Positions 4,816-63,261 of a stretch of 64,000 nt of DNA are shown in pieces. The DNA lies in the IMG/VR virus record IMGVR_UViG_3300020202_000078. One strand, given 5' to 3'. Source of the DNA: a virus. Under the pieces are notes generated by a model that was given only the letters and a program-made list of their open reading frames with translations, did not search any database and had not been told where the DNA came from. Each line of letters opens with the position of its first letter. Position 1 is the first letter of the stretch. The position numbers and the translations under genes are program-made.

Positions 4816-5693
4816 TTCGCGGCCTTTCGCTTGGCTTCGAGCGCCTTCATGACCTTGTCGAAGTCGCGGGCCGGGATCGCGGCGATACTTTCGGCCTTGA
4901 TGTAGGCCAGGAACCGCTTCCGATCGGCGCCCACGTCTTCCATGAGGGCCTGAACCTCGGCTTGCTGATCCTCCGAAAGGCCGGCGGGATCACCGCCGCT
5001 CTTGCCGTCATCGTCCTCGCCACGGCTGGTGATGTTCAGCAGGGCCATTGCGGTGTAGCGCTTGCCGTAGCTGGTGCTGGAGCCGACCGCCTGGACAGCG
5101 TTCTTGCTGCCGGTGCTGTCATGTGGAAGGGTGATTGTCGTCTCTTCCTGGTGGCCCGCGCTGTGCGACAAGATGCCGGTGACGATGATCTTGCCGTCGG
5201 CGGCGAGGCCCGTGCGGAAGGACAAGGCGAAGCCATGTTCGGACAGGGCCGGGCGGATCGCCTCGTTAATATCCTCCCACAGCGCGTAAGGGGTGGAGTG
5301 GCCCTGCTTGCCGTCCTTTGCGGGAACGATGATCCTGCCGCGCTCGGTGATGACCGGAAGCTTGGGTTGCATGGCGGCCAGCGCTGCGGCATACGCGGCC
5401 TTCGCGTCCCGGTCGCTGATGCGCTCGTACATGTCGAGCAACCGCCCCAGCTTCTCGACATCGGTGTTGGGGTCGGCGGCGGCCCGGCTGATGACCTCCA
5501 TGATGGTCGCCGGGTTGGTCTGGACGACCTCGGCGGCTACGGCGGTAGCGGTGTCTCGTTTGGCGACGGCGCCCATCGGGCTCTCCTCTTCGGGTTGATG
5601 TTCGATCTCGCAGGCCAGCAAAGACGGTTGAAACTCCGCGACGGTTTGGGGATCTTCGTAGGGCTGCATCGGCAGGCTCCGGTCTCTGGCCAT
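4812..5693 (-). CDS. erf: ERF-family single-strand annealing protein
   Basis: Adjacent to and coupled with the YqaJ exonuclease; ERF-like core with YGKRYT; acidic C-terminus. Confidence 0.6.
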   Translation of the reverse strand: MARDRSLPMQPYEDPQTVAEFQPSLLACEIEHQPEEESPMGAVAKRDTATAVAAEVVQTNPATIMEVISRAAADPNTDVEKLGRLLDMYERISDRDAKAAYAAALAAMQPKLPVITERGRIIVPAKDGKQGHSTPYALWEDINEAIRPALSEHGFALSFRTGLAADGKIIVTGILSHSAGHQEETTITLPHDSTGSKNAVQAVGSSTSYGKRYTAMALLNITSRGEDDDGKSGGDPAGLSEDQQAEVQALMEDVGADRKRFLAYIKAESIAAIPARDFDKVMKALEAKRKAAK

Positions 5694-7427: not shown

Positions 7428-8071
7428 CAGCGGCTCTCCTGCGAACACGGTGACGATTGCGGGTCGCCGTTTGGCGTCGCCGCAGACGGTTGATGACACT
7501 CCTGGGATGCACCCACCCCTTCCCATGCCTGAACAGTGGAGAGGGCGGAGAGGGCTGCGCGGCACTCTTCTTGGGCGGCCTTGGCTTCCTCGATATCGCC
7601 CCGATAGGGGACTGCTCCCGTCACGGCGTCGAGCGCCCAGCAAGCCCGTTGAGTGGCCTTCCTCAGAGCCTTGACCACCCCCGCATCTGGGGAGGGGAGG
7701 AGGGCGGCGGCTCTCTCAAACAGGACCGCGTCAGCTTCCATGTCCTGGGCAACGTCAGCCGGCATCGCCGCGAGCCAGTCACCGGGCTCCGAGGCGTTGG
7801 TTGCGGCCAGCGTTGCCCGTAGGTCGGCGGCACGCTTCAGCAGTCCTTCCCGTACTCCCTCTAGGGGGGTGTTGGGGGGCCTACCGTTGCTCTCGGCTGC
7901 CGTCGAAGCGCTGGTCGTATTGCTCCCAGCGTCAGGCGTCGGCGTGTTCAGGGTAGGCGCACGAAGCCGATCAGCCGCCGCCGTGTTTCGCCGAAGTTCG
8001 GCGTCTTGGTCCGCCTCCGAATGTTTCGCGCATGGATTGATATTGGAGCAGATCAGGCAACGGCGGCTCAT
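7427..8071 (-). CDS. Hypothetical protein with N-terminal Cys cluster
   Basis: CLICSNINPC; coupled. Confidence 0.5.
   Translation of the reverse strand: MSRRCLICSNINPCAKHSEADQDAELRRNTAAADRLRAPTLNTPTPDAGSNTTSASTAAESNGRPPNTPLEGVREGLLKRAADLRATLAATNASEPGDWLAAMPADVAQDMEADAVLFERAAALLPSPDAGVVKALRKATQRACWALDAVTGAVPYRGDIEEAKAAQEECRAALSALSTVQAWEGVGASQECHQPSAATPNGDPQSSPCSQESR
7475..7519. repeat. 40-bp repeat copy C (inverted)
   Basis: Reverse complement matches copies A and B. Confidence 0.65.
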
Positions 8072-8709
8072 CCCTGTTCTCCGGTGGCTTTGGCCTCGCC
8101 GAACGCGACGAACATCTCGACGGTGCGCCTGGTCCCCAAGGCCCGCTCGATGGCGCCCAACTCCTCGCGGGTGACGCCGACCCCCAGAGCCACGCGCCGG
8201 AACGTCTCCGTTCGCTCAGCGAACCGCGCGCCCCACTCGCGGCGCAGATCGTCCCAGGCGGCCGCGCTCTGCGCCTCGTGGGCTTCCTGTCCAGGGACCA
8301 GTGCCTCGCCTTGCGAGCACGCCGCATCGGCGGTCGGTGACTGATCCCGGGAGAGCCCCTCATGACATACGGTCGGGGCGGAGAGCGCGGCGTAAAGGGG
8401 CTCAACCTCCTTCTGCGCTCCGACGTTGCTGTCGGTCGTGTAGTTCCACGGCGGCGACAGGGGGCTGTCTGGATGCAGGCCGGCGGCTTCCTTGGTCCAT
8501 CTCCATCGCCAAGCCACGGGCTCCCCCTCCCTCATCGGGGAGGAGGGGGCGGCGGCAAGGGCGGCCAGCACCACGTCAACGGCTTCGTTGCGACGCTCGC
8601 GCTCCTTGCGGTCGACGGAGCCCTCACCGACATGGCCGGGGTCACGCTCAATGCCGAGGCGGCGAAGCGCGACGGGCAACGACAGGCTCTCGCCCTTCAC
8701 TTCAGACAT
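8068..8709 (-). CDS. Hypothetical protein sharing a TADAAC..LVPG segment with the DUF551 protein at 2100-2713
   Basis: 213-aa ORF. Confidence 0.5.
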   Translation of the reverse strand: MSEVKGESLSLPVALRRLGIERDPGHVGEGSVDRKERERRNEAVDVVLAALAAAPSSPMREGEPVAWRWRWTKEAAGLHPDSPLSPPWNYTTDSNVGAQKEVEPLYAALSAPTVCHEGLSRDQSPTADAACSQGEALVPGQEAHEAQSAAAWDDLRREWGARFAERTETFRRVALGVGVTREELGAIERALGTRRTVEMFVAFGEAKATGEQG

Positions 8710-10895: not shown

Positions 10896-11621
10896 TTGAT
10901 GATCTGGGCTTTGGTCGCCGCCGAGGTTGTTTGCGGATCACCAGCGGACATTCCGCCACTCCCGCAAACCCACACCGACTTGGTCGTGGAGCGAAACTAC
11001 AAGGCCGGGGAGGCCGTGACGGCGGTCGTTGGCCAAACGGTGGTGCGTGCCAAGAGCTTGTACGTCACTACCTCATACAGTTGGAGCTGGGTGACGGACC
11101 GCGATGTCACGATTACGTCCCAAAAGTTCACGCTCTTCCTGCCGGCCGGCAGCAAACTCAAGAGCATGGATCGCCGCCGGAGCGCGAGCGGTGCGGTTGT
11201 CGAAATCGCTGCAGCGCGGCAGTACAGCGACAGAACAATAGCGGCCCTTCAGCTCGACGGCGCCGGCTGTGTGGCGGATCATTACGCGTTCACTCTGCGC
11301 AATGGCGCCTGGCGCGAACACAAAAATCCGACACTGTTCACGCCGGAGAAGCCGAAGCTGACGCGGCAGCTGGTGGCGACGAAAGCGTCAGTCCCTGGGA
11401 CGTTGAACTACGAGATCATCTACGTAGGCCAAGATGGGCCGTCTATCCGGTTTGAGTATCGGGAATACACAGCTGACGACCTCGCTAGGCCGGCATTCTC
11501 GCAAACCTTGGCCTATCCGAAAGGTGCCCAGCGATTCCGTTTTCGCGACGTTGCCTTTCAAGTTCTCAGTCTGAAAGATGACGAGATAACAGTTCGGATC
11601 ACGCCGTCAGAAGGTGATTAG
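10896..11621 (+). CDS. Secreted or lipoprotein-like moron of unknown function between OL and cI (candidate superinfection exclusion or lysogenic conversion gene)
   Basis: N-terminal signal-like MMIWALVAAEVVCGS; position equivalent to rexAB/sieB. Confidence 0.55.
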   Translation: MMIWALVAAEVVCGSPADIPPLPQTHTDLVVERNYKAGEAVTAVVGQTVVRAKSLYVTTSYSWSWVTDRDVTITSQKFTLFLPAGSKLKSMDRRRSASGAVVEIAAARQYSDRTIAALQLDGAGCVADHYAFTLRNGAWREHKNPTLFTPEKPKLTRQLVATKASVPGTLNYEIIYVGQDGPSIRFEYREYTADDLARPAFSQTLAYPKGAQRFRFRDVAFQVLSLKDDEITVRITPSEGD

Positions 11622-12311
11622 CGGACGCTGTTGAATAGGTCGCACTGTGTAAGACGAGACCACCACACCGATGATTTCCGGGCCGTCATCCGCGTCTCGA
11701 ACGCTATCGATCCGAATGGGTTCTTGGAACGCCGGGTCGCTGGACCTTGGCCACAGGGCGACGCCCCGCTTTTCCTTGACCACTTCCTTGAGGGTTGTCT
11801 CCACAAGCCCTCCGCGACGGCGGCGCACCACAACGTGGTCACCCTCGCGCACGCCGATTTCTGCAGCTGGGCACACCACCACCATCGTCCCGTCGGGATA
11901 ATGCTGGTCCATGGAAGGTCCACGCACCCGCAAGGCGAACAACTGGGCGCCCTCAAAGCCCGCTAGATGGATCGGGATGACTTCCGGGTCGTCGGGCTCG
12001 TCGAAGACTTCAGCGAACACGCCAGCCTGTATCACGCCGATCACGGGCACCATTCGCGTGACCGCACGCATCCCGACTGGCGGAGACGGGGGCGGCATCT
12101 CGTCCAGGTCGCCGCGTCCGTAAAGGAGCCACTCGGGGGAGACGCGGAAGAACTTGCCGTAGCGCTCGGCCCGGCCAGCCGGGATCCCCCGCAACTTCCC
12201 CTCATGCTGGCTGTAAGTCGGGTAGGGGACGCCCATCGCCTCGGCCGCTGCCTTAGCGCTAGCGTAGCCTGCGCGCTCTCGCGCCAGCCGCAGCCGATCC
12301 CCCGGTTCCAT
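11607..12311 (-). CDS. cI: cI/LexA-like repressor (XRE HTH plus S24 peptidase domain)
   Basis: HTH LARERAGYASAKAAAEAMGV; C-terminal S24 region with GPSMDQHYPDGTMVVV. Confidence 0.8.
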   Translation of the reverse strand: MEPGDRLRLARERAGYASAKAAAEAMGVPYPTYSQHEGKLRGIPAGRAERYGKFFRVSPEWLLYGRGDLDEMPPPSPPVGMRAVTRMVPVIGVIQAGVFAEVFDEPDDPEVIPIHLAGFEGAQLFALRVRGPSMDQHYPDGTMVVVCPAAEIGVREGDHVVVRRRRGGLVETTLKEVVKEKRGVALWPRSSDPAFQEPIRIDSVRDADDGPEIIGVVVSSYTVRPIQQRPLITF

Positions 12312-12335
12312 GGCATCACGCCTTAGATCATCGGA

Positions 12336-12378
12336 ATATGCAAAAGGCAGTTGCGAAGCGGGTCTGCAAAATGCATAT
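12336..12378. promoter_or_regulatory. OR-like operator pair (ATATGCAAAAGGCAG; TGCAAAATGCATAT) between cI and cro
   Basis: Motif shared with OL. Confidence 0.65.
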
Positions 12379-12386
12379 TCACCGTC

Positions 12387-12617
12387 ATGCGCACCCATCA
12401 GGACATCATCCGGGACGCCGGGCCGCAGAAAATCCATGAGGCGGTCGGGTTTACGGGCCAGCTGAACACCGTCTTGTCGTGGCGGCAGCGAAACAGCATC
12501 CCGCGCGAGCACTGGGCGGCCCTGGCCGACGCGAAGATCGCGAGCCTCAAGGAGTTGGCGCTGGCTGCGCCGCCCCGGAAGCGGCGCTCCGCGTCACCGT
12601 CGCAGGTGGCCGCCTGA
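12387..12617 (+). CDS. cro: Cro-like small HTH regulator
   Basis: Divergent from cI; P22 Cro-like topology (..LSWRQRNSIP..). Confidence 0.55.
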   Translation: MRTHQDIIRDAGPQKIHEAVGFTGQLNTVLSWRQRNSIPREHWAALADAKIASLKELALAAPPRKRRSASPSQVAA

Positions 12618-14524: not shown

Positions 14525-14949
14525 TCCTCCGCTCACTCTGGAAAGGCGAAATCAACAATCCCGAGTATGCACTGGCGCCGTCGGATGCGGACGTGCTGCG
14601 TGCTGTCATCTCGGAAATCTGCGTTCGGCACCAGGTTTCCGAGACCGAGCTTGCCAGTCTAAGCCGCACCCAGCGCGTCGCCCAGGCGCGTCAGGAGGCA
14701 TATTTCCGGCTCTATGAGATCCGGTATGCCGGCGGCCGGCGCCGCTTCTCCACGATCAAGATTGGCGCCCACTTCGGTCGGGATCACTCGACGATCCTGC
14801 ACGGCATCGAGGCATTCAAGCGTCGGCAGGGTGCCCCGGCAAAGCCTAAGCGGGTCAAGCCGCAACAGGCGTCCCGGCCCGCGCCCCTTGAGGTGCTGCT
14901 GGCCAAGCGCTTCCGGCGGATCGTTGCCGAGAAGGGCTGTGTGGCATGA
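14521..14949 (+). CDS. DnaA domain-IV-like HTH protein
   Basis: RVAQARQEAYFRLYEIRYAGGRRRFSTIKIGAHFGRDHSTILHG; GTG start overlaps the upstream stop. Confidence 0.55.
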   Translation: MILRSLWKGEINNPEYALAPSDADVLRAVISEICVRHQVSETELASLSRTQRVAQARQEAYFRLYEIRYAGGRRRFSTIKIGAHFGRDHSTILHGIEAFKRRQGAPAKPKRVKPQQASRPAPLEVLLAKRFRRIVAEKGCVA

Positions 14950-15731
14950 GACAGTCACTCTCCAAGAAGCTCAGGTTCGAAGTGTTCAAGCGCGACCGCT
15001 TCACCTGCCAATATTGCGGGGCAAAAGCGCCGGACGCGGTGCTTAATTGCGACCACGTTCACCCCGTCGCGGAAGGCGGGACGAACGATATCCTGAACCT
15101 TGTAACCGCCTGCGAGGCCTGCAATGGCGGCAAGGGCGCGCGGCTTCTCGATGACCGTTCGGCGGTGGACCGCCAGCGGGCGCAGATCGAGGAACTTCAG
15201 CAGCGCCGCGAGCAGCTTGAGATGATGCTGGAGTGGCGGGACGCGGAGGAAGTTTCCCGCGTCGATACCGTCGAGGAGATTTCCAAGCGTATCCAAGATC
15301 GAGGCGGCTTTCCGCCGAACGAGAACGGCAGGAACAATATCAGGCGCTGGCTAAGAACCTATTCTCTCGCTGAGCTGCTGACTTCTCTGGACGAGTGCTT
15401 TGATCGCTACATGCTTTGGGACGGTGATGAGCCGGATGAAACGGGGTGGAACTTAGCGTTCAAGAAGATCCCCGTTCAGGCGGGGTATAATCGGCGCGGA
15501 GCCGAAAAGCCCTACCTCGCCAAGCTGGCCTACATCCAAGGCATCCTGCGGAACCGCTGCGGTGACAAGCGGGAGAAATTCTTGGTCGAGCTTGAGGACA
15601 TCCATCTCTGGGGAATCCCCCTGGAAGTGATGGAGGAGTCTGCCAAGCGCGTCACCGACTTCGAGGATTACTGGAACGAAATGGTCGGCCTCGCCGAGGC
15701 GATCCGGGAGGCGGACAGTGGCGCGGATTAG
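14946..15731 (+). CDS. HNH endonuclease with C-terminal extension
   Basis: RFEVFKRDRFTCQYCG...DHVHPVAEGG...NLVTACEACN. Confidence 0.75.
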   Translation: MRQSLSKKLRFEVFKRDRFTCQYCGAKAPDAVLNCDHVHPVAEGGTNDILNLVTACEACNGGKGARLLDDRSAVDRQRAQIEELQQRREQLEMMLEWRDAEEVSRVDTVEEISKRIQDRGGFPPNENGRNNIRRWLRTYSLAELLTSLDECFDRYMLWDGDEPDETGWNLAFKKIPVQAGYNRRGAEKPYLAKLAYIQGILRNRCGDKREKFLVELEDIHLWGIPLEVMEESAKRVTDFEDYWNEMVGLAEAIREADSGAD

Positions 15732-16719
15732 ATCAATTCACCCCGGCATCTACACTGACGAGGCGTGGGCCAGTGTGTCTATCGCTGCACGATGGCTGGC
15801 CAAGGGCATCTGCACTGAAGCGGATGACAACGGCGTATTCGAGTGGAAGCCGCTTCAGCTCAAGATGCGCATCTTCCCGGCCGATTCCGTGGATGTGGTG
15901 ACCCTGCTCGCCGAGCTGGAATCGGCCGGCATCGTCATGCGCTTCACGGCCGATGGAAAGCCGTTGGGCGCGGTGCGGAATTTCTGCAAGTACCAGCGCC
16001 CCCGCAAGCCCAAGGCTTGGTTTCCGATCACCGATGAAGCGCGGACATTTGTCGCTCTCGGCTCTGAAGGTCCGGAGCCGGCCGATGATGAAGTGACGCC
16101 AGTTCCGAAAAAGTCCGAACTCGCCCCGGTTAAAGCCGATGAAGTTCCGCACGAGTCCGAAAAGCCTCCGCAGATGGAGGATGGAGTAGGAGGAGGTAGA
16201 GGGAAGGAAGAGGAGGAAGCTAACGCTTCCTTGTCGCCGAGGGCGACGAAACGCCCGTATCCGGAGGCGTTTGAGATCGCTTGGAAGGCCTATCCGCACA
16301 CGAAGGGTCGATCCTCAAAGCCGGAGACCCTCAAGCTGTGGAGAAAACTTCCCCCCGACGAGCAACAAGCCCTGGCAGGGGCCGCGAGATCGTTCGCGGG
16401 GAAGGTCGGAACCGTTTGCGGCGACAAGGGCGCCCCGGACATGGCCGAGTGGCTCCGGAAGGGCAAACACGCCGACTGGATCGATTTTGGGAGCAACGTC
16501 GCGCCAATCCGCCCCTTTGGTGGACCGCCCGAGGTCCGACAGGCAATCGCCACGGCAAAGGGGGAAGGCTTCGCCGCCGCCTATGTGGACCCTTGCGGAT
16601 GGGACGCTGAGAACCGCTGTCTGATCGCCCGAACGGAGACCGCCGCCAAGGCGCTCAAGTCCGAAGCGGGGGCCGTTCTGGCGGCTCGACAAGTCACCGT
16701 TGCGAAGGCCGCAGCATGA
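15718..16719 (+). CDS. Putative replication initiation / replisome organizer protein
   Basis: Winged-helix-like N-terminus and acidic linker; lies in the replication module after the DnaA-like gene. Confidence 0.4.
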   Translation: MARIRSIHPGIYTDEAWASVSIAARWLAKGICTEADDNGVFEWKPLQLKMRIFPADSVDVVTLLAELESAGIVMRFTADGKPLGAVRNFCKYQRPRKPKAWFPITDEARTFVALGSEGPEPADDEVTPVPKKSELAPVKADEVPHESEKPPQMEDGVGGGRGKEEEEANASLSPRATKRPYPEAFEIAWKAYPHTKGRSSKPETLKLWRKLPPDEQQALAGAARSFAGKVGTVCGDKGAPDMAEWLRKGKHADWIDFGSNVAPIRPFGGPPEVRQAIATAKGEGFAAAYVDPCGWDAENRCLIARTETAAKALKSEAGAVLAARQVTVAKAAA

Positions 16720-19468: not shown

Positions 19469-20103
19469 TCCGTTCTGTTTACATCATCGGCGTCGGAACC
19501 GCTCCGGTTAAGGTGGGTGTCGCCGACGACGTCATCGCTAGGCTGGCGACCCTACAGATCGGCAACGCCGATGCCTTGGTCCTGCACCATGCGGTAGCCC
19601 TGCCCTGGGGTGTGGCACAACAGGTTGAGGCCGCTGCGCACAGGGATCTGGCGCCCTACCATCGGCGCGGAGAGTGGTTCAATGTTACGTCCGTCGAGGC
19701 AAGGCGGGTTGTGGAGGCATTGGCTGGCCCCATGATCGCCAAGTGGCGCGCGGGCTCCTACAACAGCGGGGACACGCTTCTGCGTCTGGTGACAGATCAC
19801 CAGGTCAGCCCGTGGGCATTTGAGGCGCTGCAGCACTATCGCGCCCGATGCGCGGCCAAGGACACCCAGGCGGTTCAAGCGATGAACCGAGCCATTCTCG
19901 ACGCTGAGGGCGCCGCCTGCTTGACCGCCTTCACCATGTTCGTCTCCAAGGGCGGTAGCATCGCGGGCATCCTCAGCCGCGCGCCGGAGGCAGCGCACAA
20001 GGCGCTTGCAGCGCTCGCCCGTGGCACGAATGCCCTTTGTGCCCATTGGCGGGCACAGCAGGACGCATCCCTGCTTGACGAAATCCAGAGAAACGTGGCA
20101 TGA
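19465..20103 (+). CDS. T5orf172/GIY-YIG-like domain protein
   Basis: SVYIIGVGTAPVKVGVADDVIARL...HR.L..Y..RGEWF. Confidence 0.55.
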   Translation: MIRSVYIIGVGTAPVKVGVADDVIARLATLQIGNADALVLHHAVALPWGVAQQVEAAAHRDLAPYHRRGEWFNVTSVEARRVVEALAGPMIAKWRAGSYNSGDTLLRLVTDHQVSPWAFEALQHYRARCAAKDTQAVQAMNRAILDAEGAACLTAFTMFVSKGGSIAGILSRAPEAAHKALAALARGTNALCAHWRAQQDASLLDEIQRNVA

Positions 20104-20170
20104 AATTACTCAGGGTGGTGCTTCGCGTCCACCCGACCCCCAACATTCGGTATCGGGCGCGGTGCGCCTG

Positions 20171-20425
20171 CTACTCTCCCCGGATCATCGCCGCCAGACT
20201 GAGCGCATCCCGCCGAACAGACGGCAGCGCCAAGTCTATGTTCCCCTGACTGAGGGCCAGGGCAAGTGAGACCCGCTCCACGGCGAGGGCATGGAGATTG
20301 CGGAGCTTCGAGGCGCCGGCTTCTACGTCCTGGTAGGCTCGATGGCTTAGGCCGATGAGGTCGGCCATCTCCGCCTGTGTAATGCCTGCCCGGTCTCTTA
20401 GGGCCTTGAGGTCGCCGACATTCAT
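20171..20425 (-). CDS. XRE-family HTH transcriptional regulator
   Basis: LRDRAGITQAEMADLIGLSHRAYQDVEAG; RBS GGAG. Confidence 0.6.
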   Translation of the reverse strand: MNVGDLKALRDRAGITQAEMADLIGLSHRAYQDVEAGASKLRNLHALAVERVSLALALSQGNIDLALPSVRRDALSLAAMIRGE

Positions 20426-20429
20426 TGAT

Positions 20430-20960
20430 TTTTCTCCGGTTACCTGATACCCCTCCGGAGAGCCTAGGCGGGACGGGAATCCCACCTAGGCCCCCCGGTT
20501 ACTTCCGGAAGCTGATTTGGACTTGTAGGACCTTCAGCTTCCAGAACCGGAGTAGGAGTTTGAAGCGAAGCTTCATTTCTTCCTCCGAGTTGCCGGCTGG
20601 GGGTCAGCCGGTAAGAATGTTGTACGCGGAAACTGCGCATAGGTCAACAGCCTAGCGCAGTTTCTTCGTATTTTTCTCGCGGTAAGCCGCAGAAACCACG
20701 CATCTCCCCGTATAGGCAGACAGGTTAAGGCGCCGACCTTGTGAAAGGCGCTCCAAGTTTCAGCGGCGGCGTGGAAACGTAGACACGCAGGTCCGGGTAC
20801 ACTGATCGGCAACCACGCAGGGAAACCTGCTTAGGGCTCGTTCAGAGCCGGTTTAACGCCCGGCCCGCTGAAAGCCATTCAGTTCGCGCCCACGGCCTTC
20901 CTCCCTCGGGGCCTGCGCGAGGCCCATCGGTAGAGCTTCTGTTCCCGATGGGCCAACCTA
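20430..20960. other. Structured ~500-bp noncoding region with reduced GC and multiple hairpins (candidate ori, ncRNA or late-operon control region)
   Basis: No convincing ORF; perfect stems such as cccatcgg...ccgatggg, aaactgcgcatagg...cctagcgcagttt, gccggctg..cagccggt. Confidence 0.35.
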
Positions 20961-20972
20961 CAGGAGACAGCG

Positions 20973-21173
20973 ATGCACCCCGACAGCCAAGCGGCCATCA
21001 TTGCAAACGACCTCGATAGCCTGGTGCACCGCATCGAGGCTCTTCCGGCGCATCCGGAGAACACGGCTGCGCTTAACGCCGTTCAAGCGGCCCGGCAGGC
21101 GATCAACAAGGCTAGAGCCGACCTGCACCAGAGCGCCATGCGGGAGCGTTTCGCCGCTTCGGACGCCGCCTAA
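20973..21173 (+). CDS. Hypothetical protein
   Basis: ORF. Confidence 0.4.
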   Translation: MHPDSQAAIIANDLDSLVHRIEALPAHPENTAALNAVQAARQAINKARADLHQSAMRERFAASDAA

Positions 21174-21240
21174 CCCCCTTCGCCCCGTCATCGCCACATC
21201 CAAGCATAGCGACTTAGACGATAGAACGCGGGCGAACCCT

Positions 21241-21435
21241 ATGAACCCCACCCCCACCGAATGGCAAGAAACCGGCCGGGACCGCACGGTGACCAGAGGG
21301 GTCTTCGTCAGGCGGCAGGTCCGCCAGGTCGAGGAGCGCCGCTACGTCTTTCGGCCAGTATCGCGGGGTTGGACCCCCGCCAACTGGCGGGAGCAAACGC
21401 GGTGGCGAGAGTGCGGTCCAAGCCGGCGCCCATAG
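21241..21435 (+). CDS. Hypothetical protein
   Basis: ORF. Confidence 0.35.
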   Translation: MNPTPTEWQETGRDRTVTRGVFVRRQVRQVEERRYVFRPVSRGWTPANWREQTRWRECGPSRRP

Positions 21436-21680
21436 CGTGAGCGAACCCTAAGAGGCCGTATGACGAAGCCACGCCTTCTCCGGTCTTCATCCGCCACGGT
21501 CCTGCACCGGCTGCTGAAGTCGAAGCGACCGCCTTGTCCGCCGAACACTGAACCGAACGCTGCGATACACTACCAGTCGCACCGAAACGAGATCGCCACA
21601 CCGACCGCGTTGCCGCTCGATCTCACCGAGCCGACGTATTGGGCCGTCGCCTAGGCGAACGCTTCAGAGGACACCGAACG

Positions 21681-22253: not shown

Positions 22254-22631
22254 ATGGGTAAGGCCAGCCGCCTCTCAAGCCCGACCGGTAGGCTGATCCT
22301 GGCCTCACACCGCCTGTCGCACTCGCCCACCCAAGATCCCGAGCCAACCACCCCTAACCAGTCTCCGTGGAAGGCGTGGTACAACACAGCCCAATGGCGC
22401 AGGCTCCGCCTAGCCACCTTTGAGCGCGACCGCTTCACCTGCCAGATGTGCCGGAAGCTCGAAGGTGACACCTCTCAGCTCGTCTGTGACCACAAGCAGC
22501 CCCACAGGGGCAATGCCACCAAGTTCTGGAATCCCGACAACCTCCAGACCCTCTGTAAATCCCCCTGTCATGACCAGCACAAGCAAGCCCAGGAGCAAGA
22601 CAGCCGGTGCCACCAGGGGACATGGGACTAA
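22254..22631 (+). CDS. HNH endonuclease (terminase-associated)
   Basis: FERDRFTCQMC...CDHKQPH...NLQTLCKSPCH; directly upstream of terS. Confidence 0.7.
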   Translation: MGKASRLSSPTGRLILASHRLSHSPTQDPEPTTPNQSPWKAWYNTAQWRRLRLATFERDRFTCQMCRKLEGDTSQLVCDHKQPHRGNATKFWNPDNLQTLCKSPCHDQHKQAQEQDSRCHQGTWD

Positions 22632-22755
22632 CCCCCGGGGGGGAGGGTCCAAAATCCTATCAAGTCGGTGGGAGAAGACCGGCGGCCAATCACGGAGAGA
22701 TTATTTCCGGCCCGGGGGATTTGAGTCCCGCGAACCTCATTGCGAACGGAGACCG

Positions 22756-24993: not shown

Positions 24994-25002
24994 GAGGCCG
25001 GC

Positions 25003-25620
25003 ATGAACCGAGCCTATTCCATGTTGGAGGCCAAGGCCTTCGATGACGACAAGCGTACCTTTTCCGGCTGGGCCACCACCCCCGCACCGGACCGCATGTC
25101 GGACACTATCGACCCGCTGGGCGCCAAGTTCCAGAACCCCCTGGTTCTGCTGCACCAGCACAATCACACGGCGCCCATCGGCTCCGTCCGGTTCGGTAAG
25201 CCGACTGCCAGGGGGATCGAGTTCGAGGCCCAAATCCCTGAGATCAAGGAGCCCGGCCCTCTGAAGGACCGCGTGGATACCGCCTGGGGCGAGATCAAGC
25301 ACGGCTTGGTCCGCGCGGTATCGATTGGCTTTCGCCCGCTCAAGTACGCGTTCCGCGACGATGGTGGAATCGACTACCAAGAGATCGAAGTGCTGGAGCT
25401 TAGCAGCGTTTCAGTGCCGGCCAACGCGAGCGCCGTGATCATGGCGGTCAAGTCCATCGACGCCGGCCTGAGGGCCGCCGAGGGCGTGCCCGACCCCGAA
25501 ATTCCGCCGACCCCCGAGAGCGAAGCCGCGCCTGGCAAGTCCGCTCATGTGGTGAAGCTGAACCCCCCGGCCCGCGACAGGGCCCAGCCTTTCGTCATCA
25601 ACAAGATCAACCACCGCTAG
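25003..25620 (+). CDS. HK97-family prohead protease
   Basis: FSGWATTP..D..GD.I.P..LLHQHNHTAPIGSV...SIGF. Confidence 0.75.
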   Translation: MNRAYSMLEAKAFDDDKRTFSGWATTPAPDRMSDTIDPLGAKFQNPLVLLHQHNHTAPIGSVRFGKPTARGIEFEAQIPEIKEPGPLKDRVDTAWGEIKHGLVRAVSIGFRPLKYAFRDDGGIDYQEIEVLELSSVSVPANASAVIMAVKSIDAGLRAAEGVPDPEIPPTPESEAAPGKSAHVVKLNPPARDRAQPFVINKINHR

Positions 25621-25651: not shown

Positions 25652-27022
25652 ATGCAAACCTACGCAGAGCAACGCTCCGCGTACGAGGCCACCCGCGCCT
25701 CGTCCGCCGCGCGCATGAAGTCCATCATGGACGAGTCGGCCGCCAAGGGTGAAACCCTGGACGCCGCTCAACAGGAAGAGTTCGACACCTTGGAGAAGGA
25801 CATCGAGGCTGTCGATGCTCAGATCAAGCGGCTGAAGACCCTGGAAAGCCTGAACCTGGAGAAGGCCGTCGAGGTCAAGGGCGCCACCGCCGAAGAGGGC
25901 TCCAACGCCCGCTCCAGCGTGACCGTCCAGGTAAAGGGGACCAACGTCCCGGCCGGCATCGGCTTCGTTCGCCTGATGGGCGCCAAGTACCTGGCGCAGA
26001 AGCACTATCAGGCGCCCGCCGAGATCGCCAAGCAGATGTGGCCGGAGATGCCGGAGCTTCAGACCATCCTTCGGACGGCTGTCACCCCCGGCAACACCAC
26101 GGACACCACCTGGGCCTCACCGCTGGTCGAGTACACCAATCTCGCCAGCGAGTTCGTCGATCTGCTGCGGCCGGCGACCATCATCGGCCGCATCCCCGGC
26201 CTGACCCGCGTGCCCTTCAACGTGAAGATTCCCCGCGCCACCACCGACCCGACCGTCAACTGGGTCGGCGAGGGTAAGGTGAAGCCGGTCTCCTCGATGG
26301 CGTTCGACTCGATCACCCTCGACCACACGAAGGTTGCGGGCATCGTGCCCATCACCGAGGAGCTGTTGCGCTTCTCGAGCCCCTCGGCGGAGATGCTGAT
26401 CCGCAACGCGCTGGTCGCGGCCGTGGCCTATCTGACCGACCGGGACTTCCTCGACCCGACGAAAGCCGAAGCGGTGGGCGTGTCGCCGGCTTCGATCACC
26501 AACGGCGTCACCCCGATTACCGCCACCGGCACCACGGCCGACGCCCTGCGCGACGACCTCGGCACGCTGCTGTCGGAGTACGCGGAAGCCAACATGGGCC
26601 TTTCCGGCCTGGTCCTGGTGATGACGGCGCAACAGGCGATCAAGATCAGCCTGATGCGCAACAGCCTGGGTCAGAAGGAGTTCGACACCATCGGCATCGG
26701 CGGCGGCACCCTGGAAGGCATTCCGGTGGTCATCTCCGAGAACATCGTCTCCACCGGCGGCTCGCCGGTCGACGGTGGCCTGATCGTGGCGATCAACGCT
26801 CCCGAAATCCTGCTCGCCGACGACGGCCAGGTGAACGTGGACATGAGCCGCGAAGCCTCGCTGCAAATGGAGACCACGCCGGATAGCCCGGCGTCGGCCT
26901 CTACGGTCCTGACCTCGCTGTGGCAACACAACATGGTCGCCTTCAGGGCCGAGCGTATGATCCACTGGAAGGCCCGCCGCTCTGGCGCCGTTCAGTTCAT
27001 CCAGAACGCCAAGTACCAGTAA
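25652..27022 (+). CDS. Major capsid protein (HK97 fold) with N-terminal coiled-coil delta domain
   Basis: 456 aa, placed after the protease; capsid-like core. Confidence 0.8.
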   Translation: MQTYAEQRSAYEATRASSAARMKSIMDESAAKGETLDAAQQEEFDTLEKDIEAVDAQIKRLKTLESLNLEKAVEVKGATAEEGSNARSSVTVQVKGTNVPAGIGFVRLMGAKYLAQKHYQAPAEIAKQMWPEMPELQTILRTAVTPGNTTDTTWASPLVEYTNLASEFVDLLRPATIIGRIPGLTRVPFNVKIPRATTDPTVNWVGEGKVKPVSSMAFDSITLDHTKVAGIVPITEELLRFSSPSAEMLIRNALVAAVAYLTDRDFLDPTKAEAVGVSPASITNGVTPITATGTTADALRDDLGTLLSEYAEANMGLSGLVLVMTAQQAIKISLMRNSLGQKEFDTIGIGGGTLEGIPVVISENIVSTGGSPVDGGLIVAINAPEILLADDGQVNVDMSREASLQMETTPDSPASASTVLTSLWQHNMVAFRAERMIHWKARRSGAVQFIQNAKYQ

Positions 27023-27027
27023 GGGTC

Positions 27028-27056
27028 GGCCCGCGCCGGTTAGAGCCGGCGCGGGC
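27028..27056 (+). terminator. Perfect 11-bp stem-loop downstream of the capsid gene (attenuator / transcript stabilizer)
   Basis: gcccgcgccggc-ttagag-ccggcgcgggc; no T-tract. Confidence 0.4.
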
Positions 27057-27075
27057 GCCTCTGAGGAGACGCCTG

Positions 27076-27522
27076 ATGAAACTGAAAGTTACAGCGCCGG
27101 ACCTCCGGTGGAAGGGCGTCCGCATACTCAAGGGCGCACCGTTCGAGGCAAACACCGACCGAGAGCGGGAGCTAGCCGATCTGCTGGTGCGGATTGGCAA
27201 GGCGGAGGAGGTCAAGGGAGGCCCCGTCCGGCGCGCTCACGTCGAGGCTCCGACGGCAAAATCGTTGGAGTGGGTCGATCCCCGCCTCGACCACGACGGC
27301 AACGGCAAGCAGGGCGGCTCTGTCGCTGTCACGGCCGAGGAGCCTTTTGAAGACATGACCGACGACCAACTCCGCGAGTTCATCGAGAAGCGGGACGGCG
27401 AGAAGCCGCATTTCCGCCTTGGTCGGCCGAAGCTTCTGGCGCTCGCCAACAAGACCGACGATGCCGAGCCCAGGGTCGGCGAGTACAAGCACCGCGCCAT
27501 GAGGGCTGAAGGCTCTGAATAA
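27076..27522 (+). CDS. Hypothetical head protein with HeH/Rho_N-like C-terminal motif
   Basis: MTDDQLREFIEKRDGEKP. Confidence 0.45.
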   Translation: MKLKVTAPDLRWKGVRILKGAPFEANTDRERELADLLVRIGKAEEVKGGPVRRAHVEAPTAKSLEWVDPRLDHDGNGKQGGSVAVTAEEPFEDMTDDQLREFIEKRDGEKPHFRLGRPKLLALANKTDDAEPRVGEYKHRAMRAEGSE

Positions 27523-60678: not shown

Positions 60679-60944
60679 TTCGGCTGCTCCAGCAGGTCTC
60701 GCGCCAGCCGCGCTTGAAGGTCCACCACGCCGCCAAGAGCCGTGTGGCGATGCTCTGTCATGCCTCGCCCGGCGTACCCGCTGCCGACCGCCGTTACCCG
60801 CTCACCATCGAGTTGAACAGTGGTGACCGCTATGCCGTGGAAGTCGCCGTCGCGAGCCGATTGGAGCATCCGCTGGCAGAAGCGCACGACCTCTTCGTCG
60901 GCTGTGGCTACTGGCTCATTCTCTACCAAGTGCACGGTGTTCAT
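60675..60944 (-). CDS. Hypothetical protein
   Basis: ORF. Confidence 0.4.
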   Translation of the reverse strand: MNTVHLVENEPVATADEEVVRFCQRMLQSARDGDFHGIAVTTVQLDGERVTAVGSGYAGRGMTEHRHTALGGVVDLQARLARDLLEQPK

Positions 60945-60949
60945 TGGCT

Positions 60950-61013
60950 ATCTCCGATATCGTAGTTGAACTCTACACCCATCCCTGTTAGGGTCAACCA
61001 CGATATCGGAGAT
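60950..61013. promoter_or_regulatory. Perfect 14-bp inverted repeat ATCTCCGATATCGT / ACGATATCGGAGAT (37-bp spacer) in a divergent promoter region
   Basis: Seen directly in the sequence. Confidence 0.5.
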
Positions 61014-61056
61014 AGAGATATTTTGACCGCAACCGCGATATCGCTCACAACGCTCC

Positions 61057-63237: not shown

Positions 63238-63261
63238 CTTCCGATGGCTCCCCGGGCAGGA
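63238..63261. repeat. attR: attR core
   Basis: Exact match to 187-210. Confidence 0.8.

What the first reader, a model, noticed from the sequence alone, without database searches (positions are those of the whole stretch)
20430..20960. ~500-bp low-GC, hairpin-dense noncoding region between the early and late gene blocks
No credible ORF is present. GC content is visibly lower than the ~65% background, and there are several perfect stems (cccatcgg/ccgatggg; aaactgcgcatagg/cctagcgcagttt; gccggctg/cagccggt; gggcctgcgcgaggccc). The candidate functions are a replication origin, a late-promoter and antitermination control region, or a structured ncRNA. It lies downstream of an XRE regulator gene on the opposite strand.
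Basis: seen in the sequence. Interest (0 to 1): 0.5.

Follow-up and report, generated by a model that had tools for sequence, protein, structure and literature searches.

The report
Structured micro-ORF leader of phage XRE gene
The hairpin-rich "empty" stretch is mostly the control region and folded, translated leader (with an unannotated 25-codon mini-gene) of the neighbouring phage regulator gene, a small conserved cassette found in other alphaproteobacterial phages and plasmids.

Summary
The gap is real: 20426-20972, GC down to 52%. Window 20501-20700 is the most structured 200 nt of the whole 64 kb (z = -8.3). It is not one element.

The left ~275 nt (20426-20701) belongs to the leftward XRE gene (20171-20425). 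It holds:
- three copies of a palindromic operator, GCGNNGTTTCNNCG, the only exact matches in 64 kb;
- the best sigma-70-like promoter in the window (TTGACC-N17-TACAAC, minus strand);
- a ~186-nt folded leader: a 5' hairpin, a strong Shine-Dalgarno sequence, a 25-codon ORF (MKLRFKLLLRFWKLKVLQVQISFRK, 20499-20576, minus strand), and a 20-bp GC hairpin directly after its stop.

The same layout, with different stem sequences and a 20-27-codon ORF, precedes XRE homologues (33-65% identity) in 11 other distinct loci. These include the cultured Rhizobium phage RHph_TM3_3_3, where the ORF is unannotated.

The right ~270 nt (20702-20972) has no homologue and no recognisable promoter, so its role is unresolved. 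I found no origin features and no Rfam match.

Closest analogue: autoregulated HTH operons such as acr-aca. What the peptide does is unknown.

The parts
20171..20425 (-). XRE-family helix-turn-helix gene, 84 aa. It is the downstream cistron of the cassette.
   Evidence: Pfam HTH_3 E = 6e-8, 33 bits against a cutoff of 23. Identical to P0001, with homologues at 54-65% identity. The AF2 model has five helices, pLDDT 91. The nearest folds are small HTH regulators: HipB, C proteins, P22 c2, Aca2 and Aca10.
20434..20437 (-). Shine-Dalgarno GGAG of the XRE gene, 8 nt before its ATG.
   Evidence: Read from the sequence.
20455..20498 (-). H1: a 20-bp GC-rich hairpin with a UCCC loop that starts at the base right after the micro-ORF stop codon. 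Four of its pairs are G.U on the minus strand and would be C.A mismatches on the plus strand.
   Evidence: An equivalent 10-20-bp GC hairpin with a different sequence follows the micro-ORF in 10 of the 11 other loci tabulated (L037 shows it in the whole-leader fold). Several have GNRA loops.
20499..20576 (-). Micro-ORF of 25 codons plus stop: MKLRFKLLLRFWKLKVLQVQISFRK. ATG at 20576-20574, TAA at 20501-20499.
   Evidence: An ORF of 20-27 codons with a strong Shine-Dalgarno sequence sits at the same place in L007, L009, L014, L015, L016, L018, L019, L022, L037, L039, L043 and L044. dN/dS is below 1 in several pairs, and the +1 frame has conserved stops. The peptides show beta-type amphipathic periodicity.
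20503..20546 (-). H2: a 13-bp hairpin inside the second half of the micro-ORF. It contains a U.G pair on the minus strand that is a C.A mismatch on the plus strand.
   Evidence: The hairpin-picking script found a hairpin of at least 10 bp in the second half of the ORF in 8 of the other 11 loci.
20553..20586 (-). Helix that pairs the micro-ORF Shine-Dalgarno sequence (GGAGG, 20582-20586) with CUCC in codons 7-8. It encloses the small hairpin H3 (20561-20575), which contains the UG of the start codon.
   Evidence: MFE folds of the predicted leader in the window. The same SD/anti-SD pairing appears in L016, L018, L009 and L037. On the plus strand this is the one 'terminator-like' site reported.
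20593..20611 (-). H4: a 7-bp hairpin (CCGGCUG/CAGCCGG) at the predicted 5' end of the transcript.
   Evidence: A hairpin at the same position with different stem sequences (GUCGCGGC, GUCAGC, CCGGCC, GCCGGGC, GUCAGGC, CCGAAGC and others) was found at the leader 5' end in the other 11 tabulated loci (the L009 and L044 picks differ from the whole-leader fold).
20619..20647 (-). Predicted promoter of the cassette: -35 TTGACC (20642-20647), a 17-nt spacer, -10 TACAAC (20619-20624). The predicted start is near 20612.
   Evidence: A custom sigma-70 PWM gives 14.9 bits, the best score in the whole 64 kb. A -10 and a TTGnnn -35 at 17 nt are found at the same aligned place in the homologous loci. The start site is inferred, not measured.
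20625..20638 (-). Operator O1 (GCGCAGTTTCCGCG; 13-bp palindrome CGCAG-TTT-CCGCG) in the promoter spacer, abutting the -10.
   Evidence: It is one of only three exact matches to GCGNNGTTTCNNCG in 64 kb, against 0.35 expected. The homologous loci carry their own palindrome at the same place, for example CCGG-AAA-CCGG, CACGG-TTT-CCGTG and TCCAA-TTT-TTGGA.
20655..20668 (+). Operator O2, just upstream of the -35 and 30 bp from O1.
   Evidence: The O1-O2 spacing of about 31 bp, counted by eye from the sequences printed, is kept in L015, L018, L022 and L039. In L016, L018, L009 and L039 the two copies have the same central orientation, so a conserved RNA hairpin is not required.
20688..20701 (-). Operator O3 (GCGTGGTTTCTGCG), 33 bp from O2.
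   Evidence: L015 has an O3-like site at a similar distance (sequence).
20702..20972 (.). Right part of the gap, function unresolved. It contains three further GAAAC/GTTTC half-site-like motifs (20753-20766, 20770-20782, 20816-20829), the overlapping hairpins H6 (20909-20925) and H7 (20921-20954), and the Shine-Dalgarno AGGAG (20962-20966) of the 66-aa gene.
   Evidence: Structure is ordinary at 20701-20900 (z = -0.8) and moderate at 20801-21000 (z = -2.3). There is no plus-strand sigma-70-like promoter, no similarity elsewhere in the window and none in any fetched locus.
20973..21173 (+). A 66-aa gene, the first gene to the right of the gap.
   Evidence: Homologues at 68-73% identity occur in two viral contigs (L001, L002). 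There the gene sits inside a run of same-strand genes with no such gap upstream.

Best explanation
The hairpin-dense left part of the gap (20426-20701) is the regulatory region and 5' leader of a small, self-contained, leftward two-cistron cassette: micro-ORF, then XRE gene.

Shown by sequence comparison:
- Three copies of a 13-14-bp palindromic operator lie 30 and 33 bp apart, about three helical turns. One sits in the promoter spacer against the -10, one just upstream of the -35, and one further upstream.
- A strong sigma-70-type promoter reads leftward.
- A ~186-nt leader contains a hairpin at its predicted 5' end, a strong Shine-Dalgarno sequence that is paired with codons 7-8 of a 25-codon ORF, a hairpin inside that ORF, and a 20-bp GC hairpin starting immediately after its stop codon. 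The XRE ribosome-binding site follows.
- The same layout, with diverged sequences, lies in front of XRE homologues in other phages, prophage ends and a plasmid.

Inferred:
- The XRE dimer binds O1-O3 cooperatively and shuts off its own strong promoter.
- The 5' hairpin and the post-stop hairpin bracket the micro-ORF, so that this mRNA segment is protected from 5'-end-dependent and 3'-exonucleolytic decay and its translation is gated by the SD-sequestering helix.
- The product that matters is therefore a small cationic, beta-hairpin-like amphipathic peptide, with XRE as its regulator. This is the same logic as an effector-plus-autorepressor 'moron' such as an acr-aca operon.

The right ~270 nt is probably the untranslated upstream region of the rightward packaging/late genes, possibly also under XRE control through weak half-sites. 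That is not shown.
For: Structure
- The gap is the structural extreme of the window.
- The predicted leaders of 10 loci whose XRE proteins are only 33-65% identical all fold far better than shuffles (z from -4.6 to -7.7). In all 10 the sense-strand z is lower than the antisense z (barely so in L019 and L007).
- The four helices recur at the same places with different stem sequences, and with G.U pairs on the sense strand.
- nhmmer detects homology of the upstream region itself: L015 at E = 1.6e-7 for the gap alone, and 8 loci at E from 5e-28 to 9e-16 when the gene is included.

Operators and promoter
- There are three exact operator matches in 64 kb, all within 77 nt, against 0.35 expected.
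- Each homologue has its own palindrome at the same two positions about 31 bp apart.
- The promoter is the top PWM score in the window and is positionally conserved.

Micro-ORF
- A 20-27-codon ORF with a strong Shine-Dalgarno sequence lies at the same place in 13 loci (11 distinct ORF sequences besides the window's, since L014 = L018 at the peptide level), with its stop 0-12 nt before the GC hairpin.
- The MAFFT alignment of window and L015 shows a 9-nt indel here.
- L019 against L007 gives dN/dS = 0.22; the +1 frame has conserved stops; the other open frame shows dN > dS.
- Alternating hydrophobic/basic residues on both sides of a central G or KK turn recur in peptides of low sequence identity.

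Cassette behaviour
- Its neighbours differ between loci: convergent with TerL, after an SRAP gene, next to a tRNA, next to an M15 peptidase at a prophage end, and on a plasmid.

XRE protein
- It is a five-helix small HTH protein, most like C proteins, HipB, P22 c2 and Aca proteins.
Against: - There are no transcript, start-site or ribosome data. The promoter, the +1 position and translation of the micro-ORF are all predictions.
- The built-in promoter scan found nothing, because it demands T at the last -10 position. My PWM was relaxed to allow C there.
- Substitutions in the micro-ORF are spread almost evenly over codon positions (103/89/107), and some pairs have dN/dS above 1. The peptide sequence is therefore only weakly constrained, or is confounded by the RNA helices that overlap it.
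- The ORF is absent in L024, apparently deleted in L020, and reduced to 13 codons in L027/L028. In L039 it encodes a quite different hydrophobic peptide. XRE function therefore does not need it, and a purely cis-acting role remains possible.
- RNAalifold on a plain MAFFT alignment gave only a weak consensus (-3.8 kcal/mol), because the variable-length helices misalign. The covariation evidence rests on per-sequence folds.
- The right ~270 nt is unexplained.
Confidence: 0.75

Rival explanations
1. The micro-ORF is only a cis-acting leader (uORF). Its translation melts the base of the post-stop hairpin H1 and remodels the leader, which tunes translation or stability of the XRE message. The peptide has no function of its own.
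For: - The layout (sequestered Shine-Dalgarno sequence, short ORF, stop codon abutting a large hairpin) is conserved even where the peptide changes character completely (L039, hydrophobic).
- Codon-position substitution counts are flat and several dN/dS values exceed 1.
- The ORF is dispensable in L024 and L020.
Against: - The amphipathic strand-turn-strand pattern recurs in peptides whose underlying RNA hairpins differ in sequence.
- The XRE Shine-Dalgarno sequence is not sequestered by H1 in the folds, so there is no obvious switch to operate.
Confidence: 0.3
2. The cassette is a toxin/regulator module resembling type I toxin-antitoxin loci. A small membrane-active peptide is made from a heavily folded, translationally silent mRNA. 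It is held in check by XRE autorepression and perhaps by a plus-strand antisense RNA that ends at the T-run after the O1/O2 inverted repeat.
For: - The mRNA is stable and highly folded, with the Shine-Dalgarno sequence and start codon sequestered.
- The peptides are cationic and amphipathic, and in L039 the peptide is a 27-aa transmembrane-like helix.
- A T-rich tract follows the inverted repeat on the plus strand in the window and in L015.
Against: - The window peptide is not hydrophobic (mean Eisenberg hydrophobicity -0.08, charge +8).
- No plus-strand promoter was found.
- The 'terminator' is made of two protein-binding palindromes. I inferred their relative orientation to differ between loci by reading the sequences; no tool tested this.
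- No known type I family has an XRE gene co-transcribed downstream (my own knowledge).
Confidence: 0.12
3. One reading: the gap, at least its right part, is the late-operon promoter and antitermination region, equivalent to lambda PR'-qut-tR'. Under this reading the hairpins would be terminators or antiterminator RNA on the plus strand.
For: - The position is exactly between the early rightward operon and the small-gene/HNH/TerS/TerL block.
- Two mutually exclusive hairpins, H6 and H7, lie just before the first rightward gene.
- GAAAC/GTTTC half-site-like motifs are enriched in 20753-20829.
- A -10-like TACACT occurs at 20798-20803 without a -35, as expected of an activator-dependent promoter (read from the sequence).
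Against: - No sigma-70-like plus-strand promoter is present, and no terminator with a proper T-run.
- No Q-like or other antiterminator domain was found in the neighbouring genes.
- In relatives L001 and L002 the 66-aa gene simply continues a same-strand operon without any such region.
- Most of the conserved leader hairpins fold better on the minus strand (H4 in the window extends further on the plus strand).
- The right part has no homologue, so nothing can be tested by comparison.
Confidence: 0.2
4. The region is the phage replication origin.
For: - There is a local GC dip.
- Three repeated 14-bp sites occur at regular spacing.
- The DNA is rich in palindromes.
Against: - There are no tandem iterons, no DnaA boxes and no CtrA boxes, and the lowest 40-nt GC is still 42.5%.
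- The three sites sit at fixed positions relative to a -35/-10 pair. Homologous cassettes in unrelated genomic contexts have them too.
- The replication genes lie 5-7 kb to the left.
Confidence: 0.02

Closest known systems
acr-aca operons of phages (for example acrIF8-aca2 of Pectobacterium phage ZF40; Aca1-Aca14)
   Same: - A small upstream gene is followed by a small HTH autorepressor gene.
- The promoter is strong, with inverted-repeat operators overlapping it.
- The 5' region of the mRNA is structured.
- The unit behaves as a portable cassette found at varied places in mobile elements (PMC6765145; PMC13551039 abstract and section 18).
- Aca2 and Aca10 are among the Foldseek matches of the XRE model.
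   Different: - The upstream ORF is 20-27 codons, smaller than any anti-CRISPR protein I know of.
- The XRE was not tested against Aca family models, and the fold matches are generic (E about 0.05-0.1).
- The RNA hairpins do not resemble the DNA operator, unlike the Aca2 case.
- There are three operators at about 31-bp spacing.
- No anti-defence activity is known.
Controller (C) proteins of restriction-modification systems and their C-box operators
   Same: - The protein is an ~80-aa XRE-fold dimer-type regulator.
- Repeated palindromic sites lie in front of its own gene, one proximal to the core promoter and one distal, which suggests combined positive and negative autoregulation.
- PADLOC 'Control_protein' hits at E = 1.4e-5. 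C.EcoT38IS, C.Kpn2I, C.BclI and C.Csp231I are among the best fold matches.
   Different: - No restriction or methylase genes are co-transcribed.
- The operator spacing is ~31 bp rather than adjacent boxes.
- A long leader with a micro-ORF lies between promoter and regulator gene, where C genes are typically leaderless or have short leaders (my own knowledge).
Lambda/434-type Cro and CI with tripartite operators
   Same: - Three related palindromic operators bound by a small HTH protein at a promoter in a temperate phage.
- 434 Cro, 434 repressor and P22 c2 are sequence or fold matches.
   Different: - This is not the immunity region. The CI-like S24 repressor and its divergent partner are at 11.6-13.2 kb.
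- Only one recognisable promoter is present.
- Operator spacing is 30-33 bp.
Operons with segmental mRNA stability set by an intercistronic hairpin (for example the Rhodobacter puf operon)
   Same: A large GC hairpin lies directly after a short upstream cistron, and a 5' hairpin is present. That layout would let the small-ORF segment outlive the downstream cistron (inference; the comparison rests on my own knowledge).
   Different: No decay data exist here. The puf peptides are membrane proteins of about 50 aa and that operon has no autoregulator.
Type I toxin mRNAs (hok, tisB, zorO, dinQ)
   Same: The mRNA is heavily folded, the Shine-Dalgarno sequence and start codon are sequestered, and the ORF is very short.
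   Different: The peptide is cationic and amphipathic, not a hydrophobic helix, except in L039. No antisense RNA is evident. A regulator gene is co-transcribed.

Membership tests
XRE/Cro-C1-type HTH autoregulator with operators in its own promoter | HTH_3-type DNA-binding domain | tested here: met
   Pfam HTH_3 E = 6e-8, 33 bits against a cutoff of 23. The AF2 model is a five-helix bundle with pLDDT 91. Fold matches are to 434 and P22 repressors, HipB and C proteins.
XRE/Cro-C1-type HTH autoregulator with operators in its own promoter | Repeated palindromic sites overlapping the promoter of its own gene | tested here: met
   There are three exact matches to GCGNNGTTTCNNCG in 64 kb, all at 20625-20701, against 0.35 expected. 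O1 abuts the -10 of the best-scoring promoter. Homologues have lineage-specific palindromes at the same positions.
XRE/Cro-C1-type HTH autoregulator with operators in its own promoter | The protein binds these sites and represses transcription | not testable with these tools
   This needs EMSA or footprinting and reporter assays.
acr-aca operon | The regulator belongs to a described Aca family (Aca1-Aca14) | not tested
   No Aca profile library is available here. The only link is generic fold similarity to Aca2 (E about 0.055-0.1) and Aca10 (E about 0.1).
acr-aca operon | The upstream gene encodes an anti-CRISPR or anti-defence protein | not testable with these tools
   The 25-aa peptide is too short for homology searches in gene-call-based databases. 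No activity data exist.
acr-aca operon | Inverted-repeat operator in a strong promoter, on a mobile element | tested here: met
Restriction-modification controller (C) protein | Co-transcribed with, or adjacent to, restriction endonuclease and methyltransferase genes | tested here: not met
   The neighbours in the window are a T5orf172/MUG113-domain gene (convergent) and a 66-aa gene (divergent). Only L009-L011 have a convergent orphan D12 methylase.
Type I toxin-antitoxin locus | Small hydrophobic, membrane-spanning toxin peptide | tested here: not met
   The window peptide has charge +8, mean hydrophobicity -0.08 and beta rather than alpha periodicity. Only L039 encodes a transmembrane-like helix.
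Type I toxin-antitoxin locus | Cis- or trans-encoded antisense RNA antitoxin | tested here: inconclusive
   No plus-strand promoter scores above background. One weak terminator-like site and a T-run after the O1/O2 repeat are present. RNA data are needed.
Any described RNA family (Rfam 15) | Match to a covariance model at or near its gathering score | tested here: not met
   There are no gathering-score hits in the gap. At E <= 10 there are only two eukaryotic-family chance hits, 19.5 and 15.9 bits against cutoffs of 70 and 40.
Phage replication origin | Iterons or initiator boxes next to an AT-rich unwinding element | tested here: not met
   No tandem repeats. No DnaA or CtrA boxes, and the minimum 40-nt GC is 42.5%.
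Lambdoid late control region (PR'-qut-tR' with Q) | Rightward constitutive promoter followed by an intrinsic terminator, with an antiterminator gene just upstream | tested here: not met
   No plus-strand sigma-70-like promoter. No stem plus T-run terminator in 20700-20972. No antiterminator domain in the genes at 17.9-20.1 kb. An activator-dependent promoter cannot be excluded.

The most novel reading that the evidence does not exclude
The 20-27-residue cationic beta-hairpin peptide is the actual payload of a previously undescribed phage 'moron' family in Alphaproteobacteria. It would be an effector, for example an anti-defence factor, a superinfection-exclusion factor or a membrane-active toxin. 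It would be made from an mRNA segment stabilised by flanking hairpins, transcribed from a very strong promoter, and throttled by a co-encoded XRE autorepressor binding three phased operators. That would make it an acr-aca-like circuit with by far the smallest known effector.
Probability: 0.25. Interest if true: 0.7.

Novelty: new variant of a known kind. Interest (0 to 1): 0.5.

Why it matters
- It changes an apparently empty 0.5-kb stretch into a defined, testable genetic unit with promoter, three operators, folded leader, micro-ORF and regulator. Gene callers miss the micro-ORF, which is unannotated in the one GenBank phage record and absent from the gene calls of all metagenome loci examined.
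- It adds a candidate small-protein family of 20-27 aa with an amphipathic strand-turn-strand pattern, and a rare XRE subfamily. Only 14 representatives in 1.84 billion protein clusters match its C-terminal half.
- A cultured phage, Rhizobium phage RHph_TM3_3_3, carries the cassette, so the predictions can be tested directly.
- If the peptide proves to be an effector, it would extend the effector-plus-autorepressor logic known from anti-CRISPR operons to micro-proteins.
- If the peptide is not an effector, the region is an ordinary autoregulated regulator gene with an unusually elaborate leader.

Tried and rejected
- Rfam at gathering and at E <= 10 found nothing relevant.
- blastn of 20100-21500 against 50,697 phage records gave no match.
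- The XRE protein alone against viral contigs gave no relative. The HNH protein against viral contigs gave none. A micro-ORF DNA pattern in viral contigs gave no hit.
- The exact-protein look-up of the 85-aa version of XRE failed because the start was wrong. The contigs carrying the 66-aa protein were all 100% identical over the gap and so were uninformative.
- The genome-contig scan gave only one relative.
- ORFs of 30 aa or more in the gap (76 aa plus strand; 58 and 79 aa minus strand) were rejected. They have no coding-type GC3 signal, no conservation and no gene calls.
- RNAalifold on a MAFFT alignment of the leaders was too misaligned to be useful. I relied on per-locus folds and shuffles instead.
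- The long stem at 20623-20670 was considered as a plus-strand terminator or as an RNA hairpin. I rejected it as the primary reading because it consists of two operator copies and lies upstream of the predicted start.
- Resemblance between the RNA hairpins and the operators, as in Aca2, was looked for by eye and not found.
- Replication origin features were looked for and not found.
- Similarity of the right half to other parts of the window, for shared late-promoter motifs, gave only chance 11-14-mers.
- The literature search for an upstream small ORF with XRE in prophages returned nothing relevant.
Full report
**1. Setting**

The window is a lambdoid-style prophage in a ~64% GC genome. The host is probably a Caulobacter-like alphaproteobacterium, since a CC0196 sRNA and a tRNA-Asn lie at 63.2-63.45 kb.

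The gene map:
- integrase, 5-1516;
- YqaJ and ERF recombination genes on the minus strand;
- a CI-like S24 repressor, 11607-12512 (minus strand);
- a long rightward early operon, 12.7-20.1 kb, which includes a DnaA-C-like HTH, an HNH and a T5orf172/MUG113 gene;
- an 84-aa XRE gene on the minus strand, 20171-20425;
- the gap;
- a rightward block of small genes, then HNH, TerS, TerL, protease and capsid.

However, the gap lies upstream of the XRE gene, not downstream of it.

**2. The observation**

- The gap is 20426-20972, 547 nt.
- GC falls to 0.52-0.56.
- The whole gap folds with z = -7.1 on either strand.
- In a scan of 639 overlapping 200-nt windows, 20501-20700 is the most structured of the entire 64 kb (z = -8.3; mean -0.37, sd 1.26). 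By contrast, 20701-20900 is ordinary (z = -0.8).
- The four quoted stems exist. Two of them are imperfect: one has a 1-nt bulge and one ends in a G.T pair.
- ORFs of 30 aa or more in the gap show no coding signal. Gene callers left the gap empty in four identical metagenome contigs.

**3. Finding relatives**

- Close contigs were 100% identical over the gap and gave no information.
- Relatives of the 66-aa rightward gene (L001, L002) have no such gap. In those contigs the gene continues a same-strand operon.
- The informative step was to follow the XRE protein. Eight homologues at 54-100% identity were found and their contigs were fetched.
- nhmmer then showed that the DNA upstream of these genes is homologous to the left part of the gap. 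L015 matched the gap alone at E = 1.6e-7. Eight loci matched at E between 5e-28 and 9e-16 when the gene was included.
- Further relatives came from genome, metagenome and viral scans using the protein alignment.
- tblastn against annotated collections added the cultured Rhizobium phage RHph_TM3_3_3 (MN988468.1) and a Bosea plasmid.

**4. Anatomy of the left part (minus strand, read 5' to 3')**

(a) *Operators.* The motif GCGNNGTTTCNNCG has exactly three perfect matches in 64 kb: O3 at 20688-20701, O2 at 20655-20668 and O1 at 20625-20638. The expected number is 0.35, and none of 100 shuffles reached three.
- Each site is a 13-bp palindrome with an A/T-tract centre (CGCAG-TTT-CCGCG).
- Centre-to-centre spacings are 30 and 33 bp, about three helical turns.
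- Homologous loci have their own palindrome at the same two positions about 31 bp apart. Examples are CCGG-AAA-CCGG, CACGG-TTT-CCGTG, TCCAA-TTT-TTGGA, CACG-AAAA-CCGTG and ATACGCA-ATTTC-TGCGTAT. This is the pattern expected when a repressor and its operator co-evolve.
In several loci the central tracts have the same orientation, so a conserved RNA hairpin is not implied. The stem also lies upstream of the predicted transcription start.

(b) *Promoter.* The -35 is TTGACC (20642-20647) and the -10 is TACAAC (20619-20624), separated by 17 nt.
- With a sigma-70 PWM that tolerates C at the last -10 position (the alphaproteobacterial TAnAWC form, from my own knowledge), this is the highest-scoring promoter in the whole window at 14.9 bits (99th percentile of per-620-nt-segment best scores 14.6).
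- A TTGnnn-N17 -10 pair lies at the same aligned position in the relatives.
- O1 fills the spacer up to the -10, and O2 sits just upstream of the -35.
- The low-GC trough, 42.5% at 20638-20677, is this promoter and O2 region.

(c) *Leader*, about 186 nt from roughly 20612. In order it contains:
- a 7-bp hairpin at the predicted 5' end (H4, 20593-20611);
- a strong Shine-Dalgarno sequence GGAGG (20582-20586), paired with CUCC in codons 7-8, around a small hairpin that contains the start codon (20553-20586);
- a 25-codon ORF (20576 down to 20499);
- a 13-bp hairpin within that ORF (H2, 20503-20546);
- a 20-bp GC hairpin beginning at the base after the TAA stop (H1, 20455-20498);
- the XRE Shine-Dalgarno sequence (20434-20437) and its ATG.

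**5. Is the structure conserved, and on which strand?**

- Leaders from 10 loci whose XRE proteins are 33-65% identical all fold much better than dinucleotide shuffles (z from -4.6 to -7.7).
- In all 10 the sense-strand z-score is lower than the antisense one, though only marginally in L019 and L007. In the window it is -7.5 against -3.4.
- The helices recur at the same places with different stem sequences. For H4 the stems include CCGGCUG, GUCGCGGC, GUCAGC, CCGGCC, GCCGGGC, GUCAGGC and CCGAAGC. H1 is 10-20 bp and often has a GNRA loop.
- The helices contain G.U pairs on the sense strand that would be C.A mismatches on the other strand.
- A MAFFT/RNAalifold consensus was weak because the helices vary in length. 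The covariation evidence is therefore qualitative and should be redone with R-scape on a larger structural alignment.

**6. The micro-ORF**

Thirteen loci, counting the window, have a 20-27-codon ORF at the same place, always with a strong Shine-Dalgarno sequence. In the window and L022 the stop codon directly abuts the GC hairpin; elsewhere the hairpin begins within roughly 2-12 nt, judged by eye:

| Locus | Peptide |
|---|---|
| window | MKLRFKLLLRFWKLKVLQVQISFRK |
| L015 | MRFLLKLRLRGFGLRLNLSIRM |
| L016 | MRLQLKLVLSWTKGLRLVIEFRD |
| L018 / L014 | MRLHLKLVLRWIGLRLTLKVRI |
| L009 | MRLQPKLVLRWIGLRLTLKVRI |
| L019 | VKITLRVTLWIIGLRLSLKVRK |
| L007 | VKLSLRVTLWIIGLKLALRIKR |
| L022 | MFISFTLRWKKWSLTVTIFF |
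| L037 | MFNLALRFKWKRIRLILEIRF |
| L043 (Rhizobium phage) | MSVKLTFQVRFGKWRLTISISR |
| L044 (Bosea plasmid) | ..RLRYVKLEIRLWFARLLLIFK |
| L039 | MSYETASLILQALSVIIALASLIIALR |

Evidence for coding:
- The common theme is alternating hydrophobic and basic or polar residues on both sides of a central G or KK. That describes an amphipathic strand-turn-strand.
- The 180-degree hydrophobic moment beats shuffles at p = 0.03-0.17 per peptide. No alpha-type periodicity is seen.
- L019 against L007 differ mainly by synonymous or conservative changes (dN/dS = 0.22).
- The +1 frame has conserved stops, and the other open frame shows dN > dS.
- The MAFFT alignment of window and L015 places a 9-nt gap in this region.

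Cautions:
- Substitutions are spread evenly over codon positions, and some pairs have dN/dS above 1.
- The RNA helices overlap the ORF and confound the substitution pattern.
- L039 encodes a different, hydrophobic peptide.
- The ORF is missing in L024, deleted in L020 and truncated in L027/L028.

My conclusion is that the ORF is very probably translated and its peptide type is under selection. A purely cis-acting role is not excluded.

**7. The regulator**

- The XRE protein models as a five-helix bundle (pLDDT 91).
- Its nearest sequence and fold matches are small HTH regulators: HipB, R-M controller proteins, P22 c2, 434 Cro and repressor, CapH, Aca2 and Aca10. All are at generic levels.
- Its conserved C-terminal half is rare. 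Only 14 of 1.84 billion cluster representatives match at E <= 1e-3.

**8. Context**

The cassette keeps its internal layout while its neighbours change:
- between the early and late blocks (this window);
- convergent with TerL (L015);
- after an SRAP gene (L007, L027);
- beside a tRNA (L021/L022; L043);
- at a prophage end next to an M15 peptidase and a host metabolic gene (L037);
- on a plasmid (L044).

This is the behaviour of a self-contained 'moron'.

**9. Mechanism proposed**

Shown: the operators, the promoter motif, the leader architecture and their conservation.

Inferred:
- XRE dimers bind O1-O3 on one face of the helix and repress an intrinsically strong promoter. O1 sits at about -20. 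O2 at about -50 could also activate at low occupancy, as happens for C proteins and for lambda CI.
- The 5' hairpin and the post-stop hairpin bracket the micro-ORF. This should protect that segment from 5'-end-dependent and 3'-exonucleolytic decay, as an intercistronic hairpin does in the puf operon (my own knowledge).
- The SD/anti-SD helix gates translation of the micro-ORF.

The overall logic is effector plus autorepressor. This matches acr-aca operons, where HTH Aca proteins bind inverted repeats in strong promoters and, for Aca1 and Aca2, also bind hairpins in the 5' UTR (PMC6765145; PMC13551039). Membership in that family is not established. The Aca families were not tested, the ORF is far smaller than any Acr protein I know of, and the RNA hairpins do not mimic the operator.

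**10. The right part (20702-20972)**

- It has no homologue in any fetched locus and no similarity elsewhere in the window.
- It has no ORF with a ribosome-binding site.
- It has no sigma-70-like plus-strand promoter and no terminator.
- Its structure is only moderate near 20900-20954, where two mutually exclusive hairpins precede the Shine-Dalgarno sequence of the 66-aa gene.
- GAAAC/GTTTC motifs are enriched: six occur in 20629-20826 against 1.5 per kb in the window. Three lie beyond the operators, and two of those share an operator half-site, CGTGG or CGCAG (plus the sequence).
- XRE might therefore also act on rightward transcription, and a -10-like TACACT at 20798-20803 lacks a -35. This is speculation. 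The late-promoter idea can be neither supported nor excluded.

**11. Rejected readings**

- Replication origin: no iterons and no DnaA or CtrA boxes.
- A known RNA family: none.
- A free-standing ncRNA: the structure is in an mRNA leader that contains an ORF.

**12. Verdict**

Most of it is explained as the control region and folded, micro-ORF-bearing leader of an autoregulated XRE cassette. The cassette is conserved, rare and unannotated. I class it as a new variant of a known kind. Interest is moderate and would rise if the peptide proves to be an effector.

Noticed in passing
window 27023-27060 (structured window 27001-27200): The second most structured 200-nt window of the 64 kb (z = -6.5). 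An 11-bp perfect GC hairpin, GGCCCGCGCCGG-UUAGA-GCCGGCGCGGGC, lies immediately after the major capsid gene stop (27022). It is probably the usual post-capsid attenuator or terminator.
   Followed up: partly
window 15801-16000, 44601-44800, 25001-25200, 60901-61100: Other windows with unusually low folding z-scores (-5.3, -4.7, -4.6 and -4.3). The first lies inside the 333-aa gene at 15718-16719. None was examined.
   Followed up: no
window 31300-31379 and 62454-62541: ARAGORN calls a tRNA-Trp (80 nt) inside the structural-gene region and a tRNA-Ile (88 nt). Neither reaches the Rfam tRNA gathering score. Only the tRNA-Asn at 63245-63320 does. The two may be false positives or degenerate copies.
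   Followed up: no
window 63245-63450: A tRNA-Asn and a match to Caulobacter sRNA CC0196 (41 bits, cutoff 35) lie side by side on the minus strand near the right end. This is host flank, and perhaps the attachment-site side of the prophage.
   Followed up: no
L021 against L022 (JGI contigs Ga0116229_10002417 and Ga0209611_10010234), about 4900-4960: Two otherwise identical cassettes differ by a 36-nt deletion in L021 between GATGG repeats. The deletion removes operator O1 and the -10. This looks like a natural promoter-knockout variant.
   Followed up: partly
L044 (Bosea sp. Tri-49 plasmid NZ_CP017947.1, record 7696-8229): RefSeq annotates a 177-aa hypothetical protein on the opposite strand across the XRE homologue (41% identity over 99% of the query), and annotates neither the XRE gene nor the micro-ORF. 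This is probably a mis-annotation.
   Followed up: partly
L043 (Rhizobium phage RHph_TM3_3_3, MN988468.1, record 1-1422): In this cultured phage the cassette lies between a tRNA-Met and a convergent gene annotated as a NusG-like transcription antiterminator. The 279-nt stretch holding the operators, leader and micro-ORF carries no annotation.
   Followed up: partly
window 14946-15731 and 22254-22631: The prophage has two HNH endonuclease genes. The second lies immediately upstream of TerS and TerL, the arrangement typical of HNH-assisted cos packaging. The cos site is therefore more likely near 22632-22755 than in the gap studied here.
   Followed up: no
window 20103-20171: The early operon (T5orf172 gene) and the XRE gene converge on a 68-nt spacer containing the hairpin GGGTGG-N10-CCACCC. 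This may be a shared bidirectional terminator, though neither side has a good T-run.
   Followed up: no
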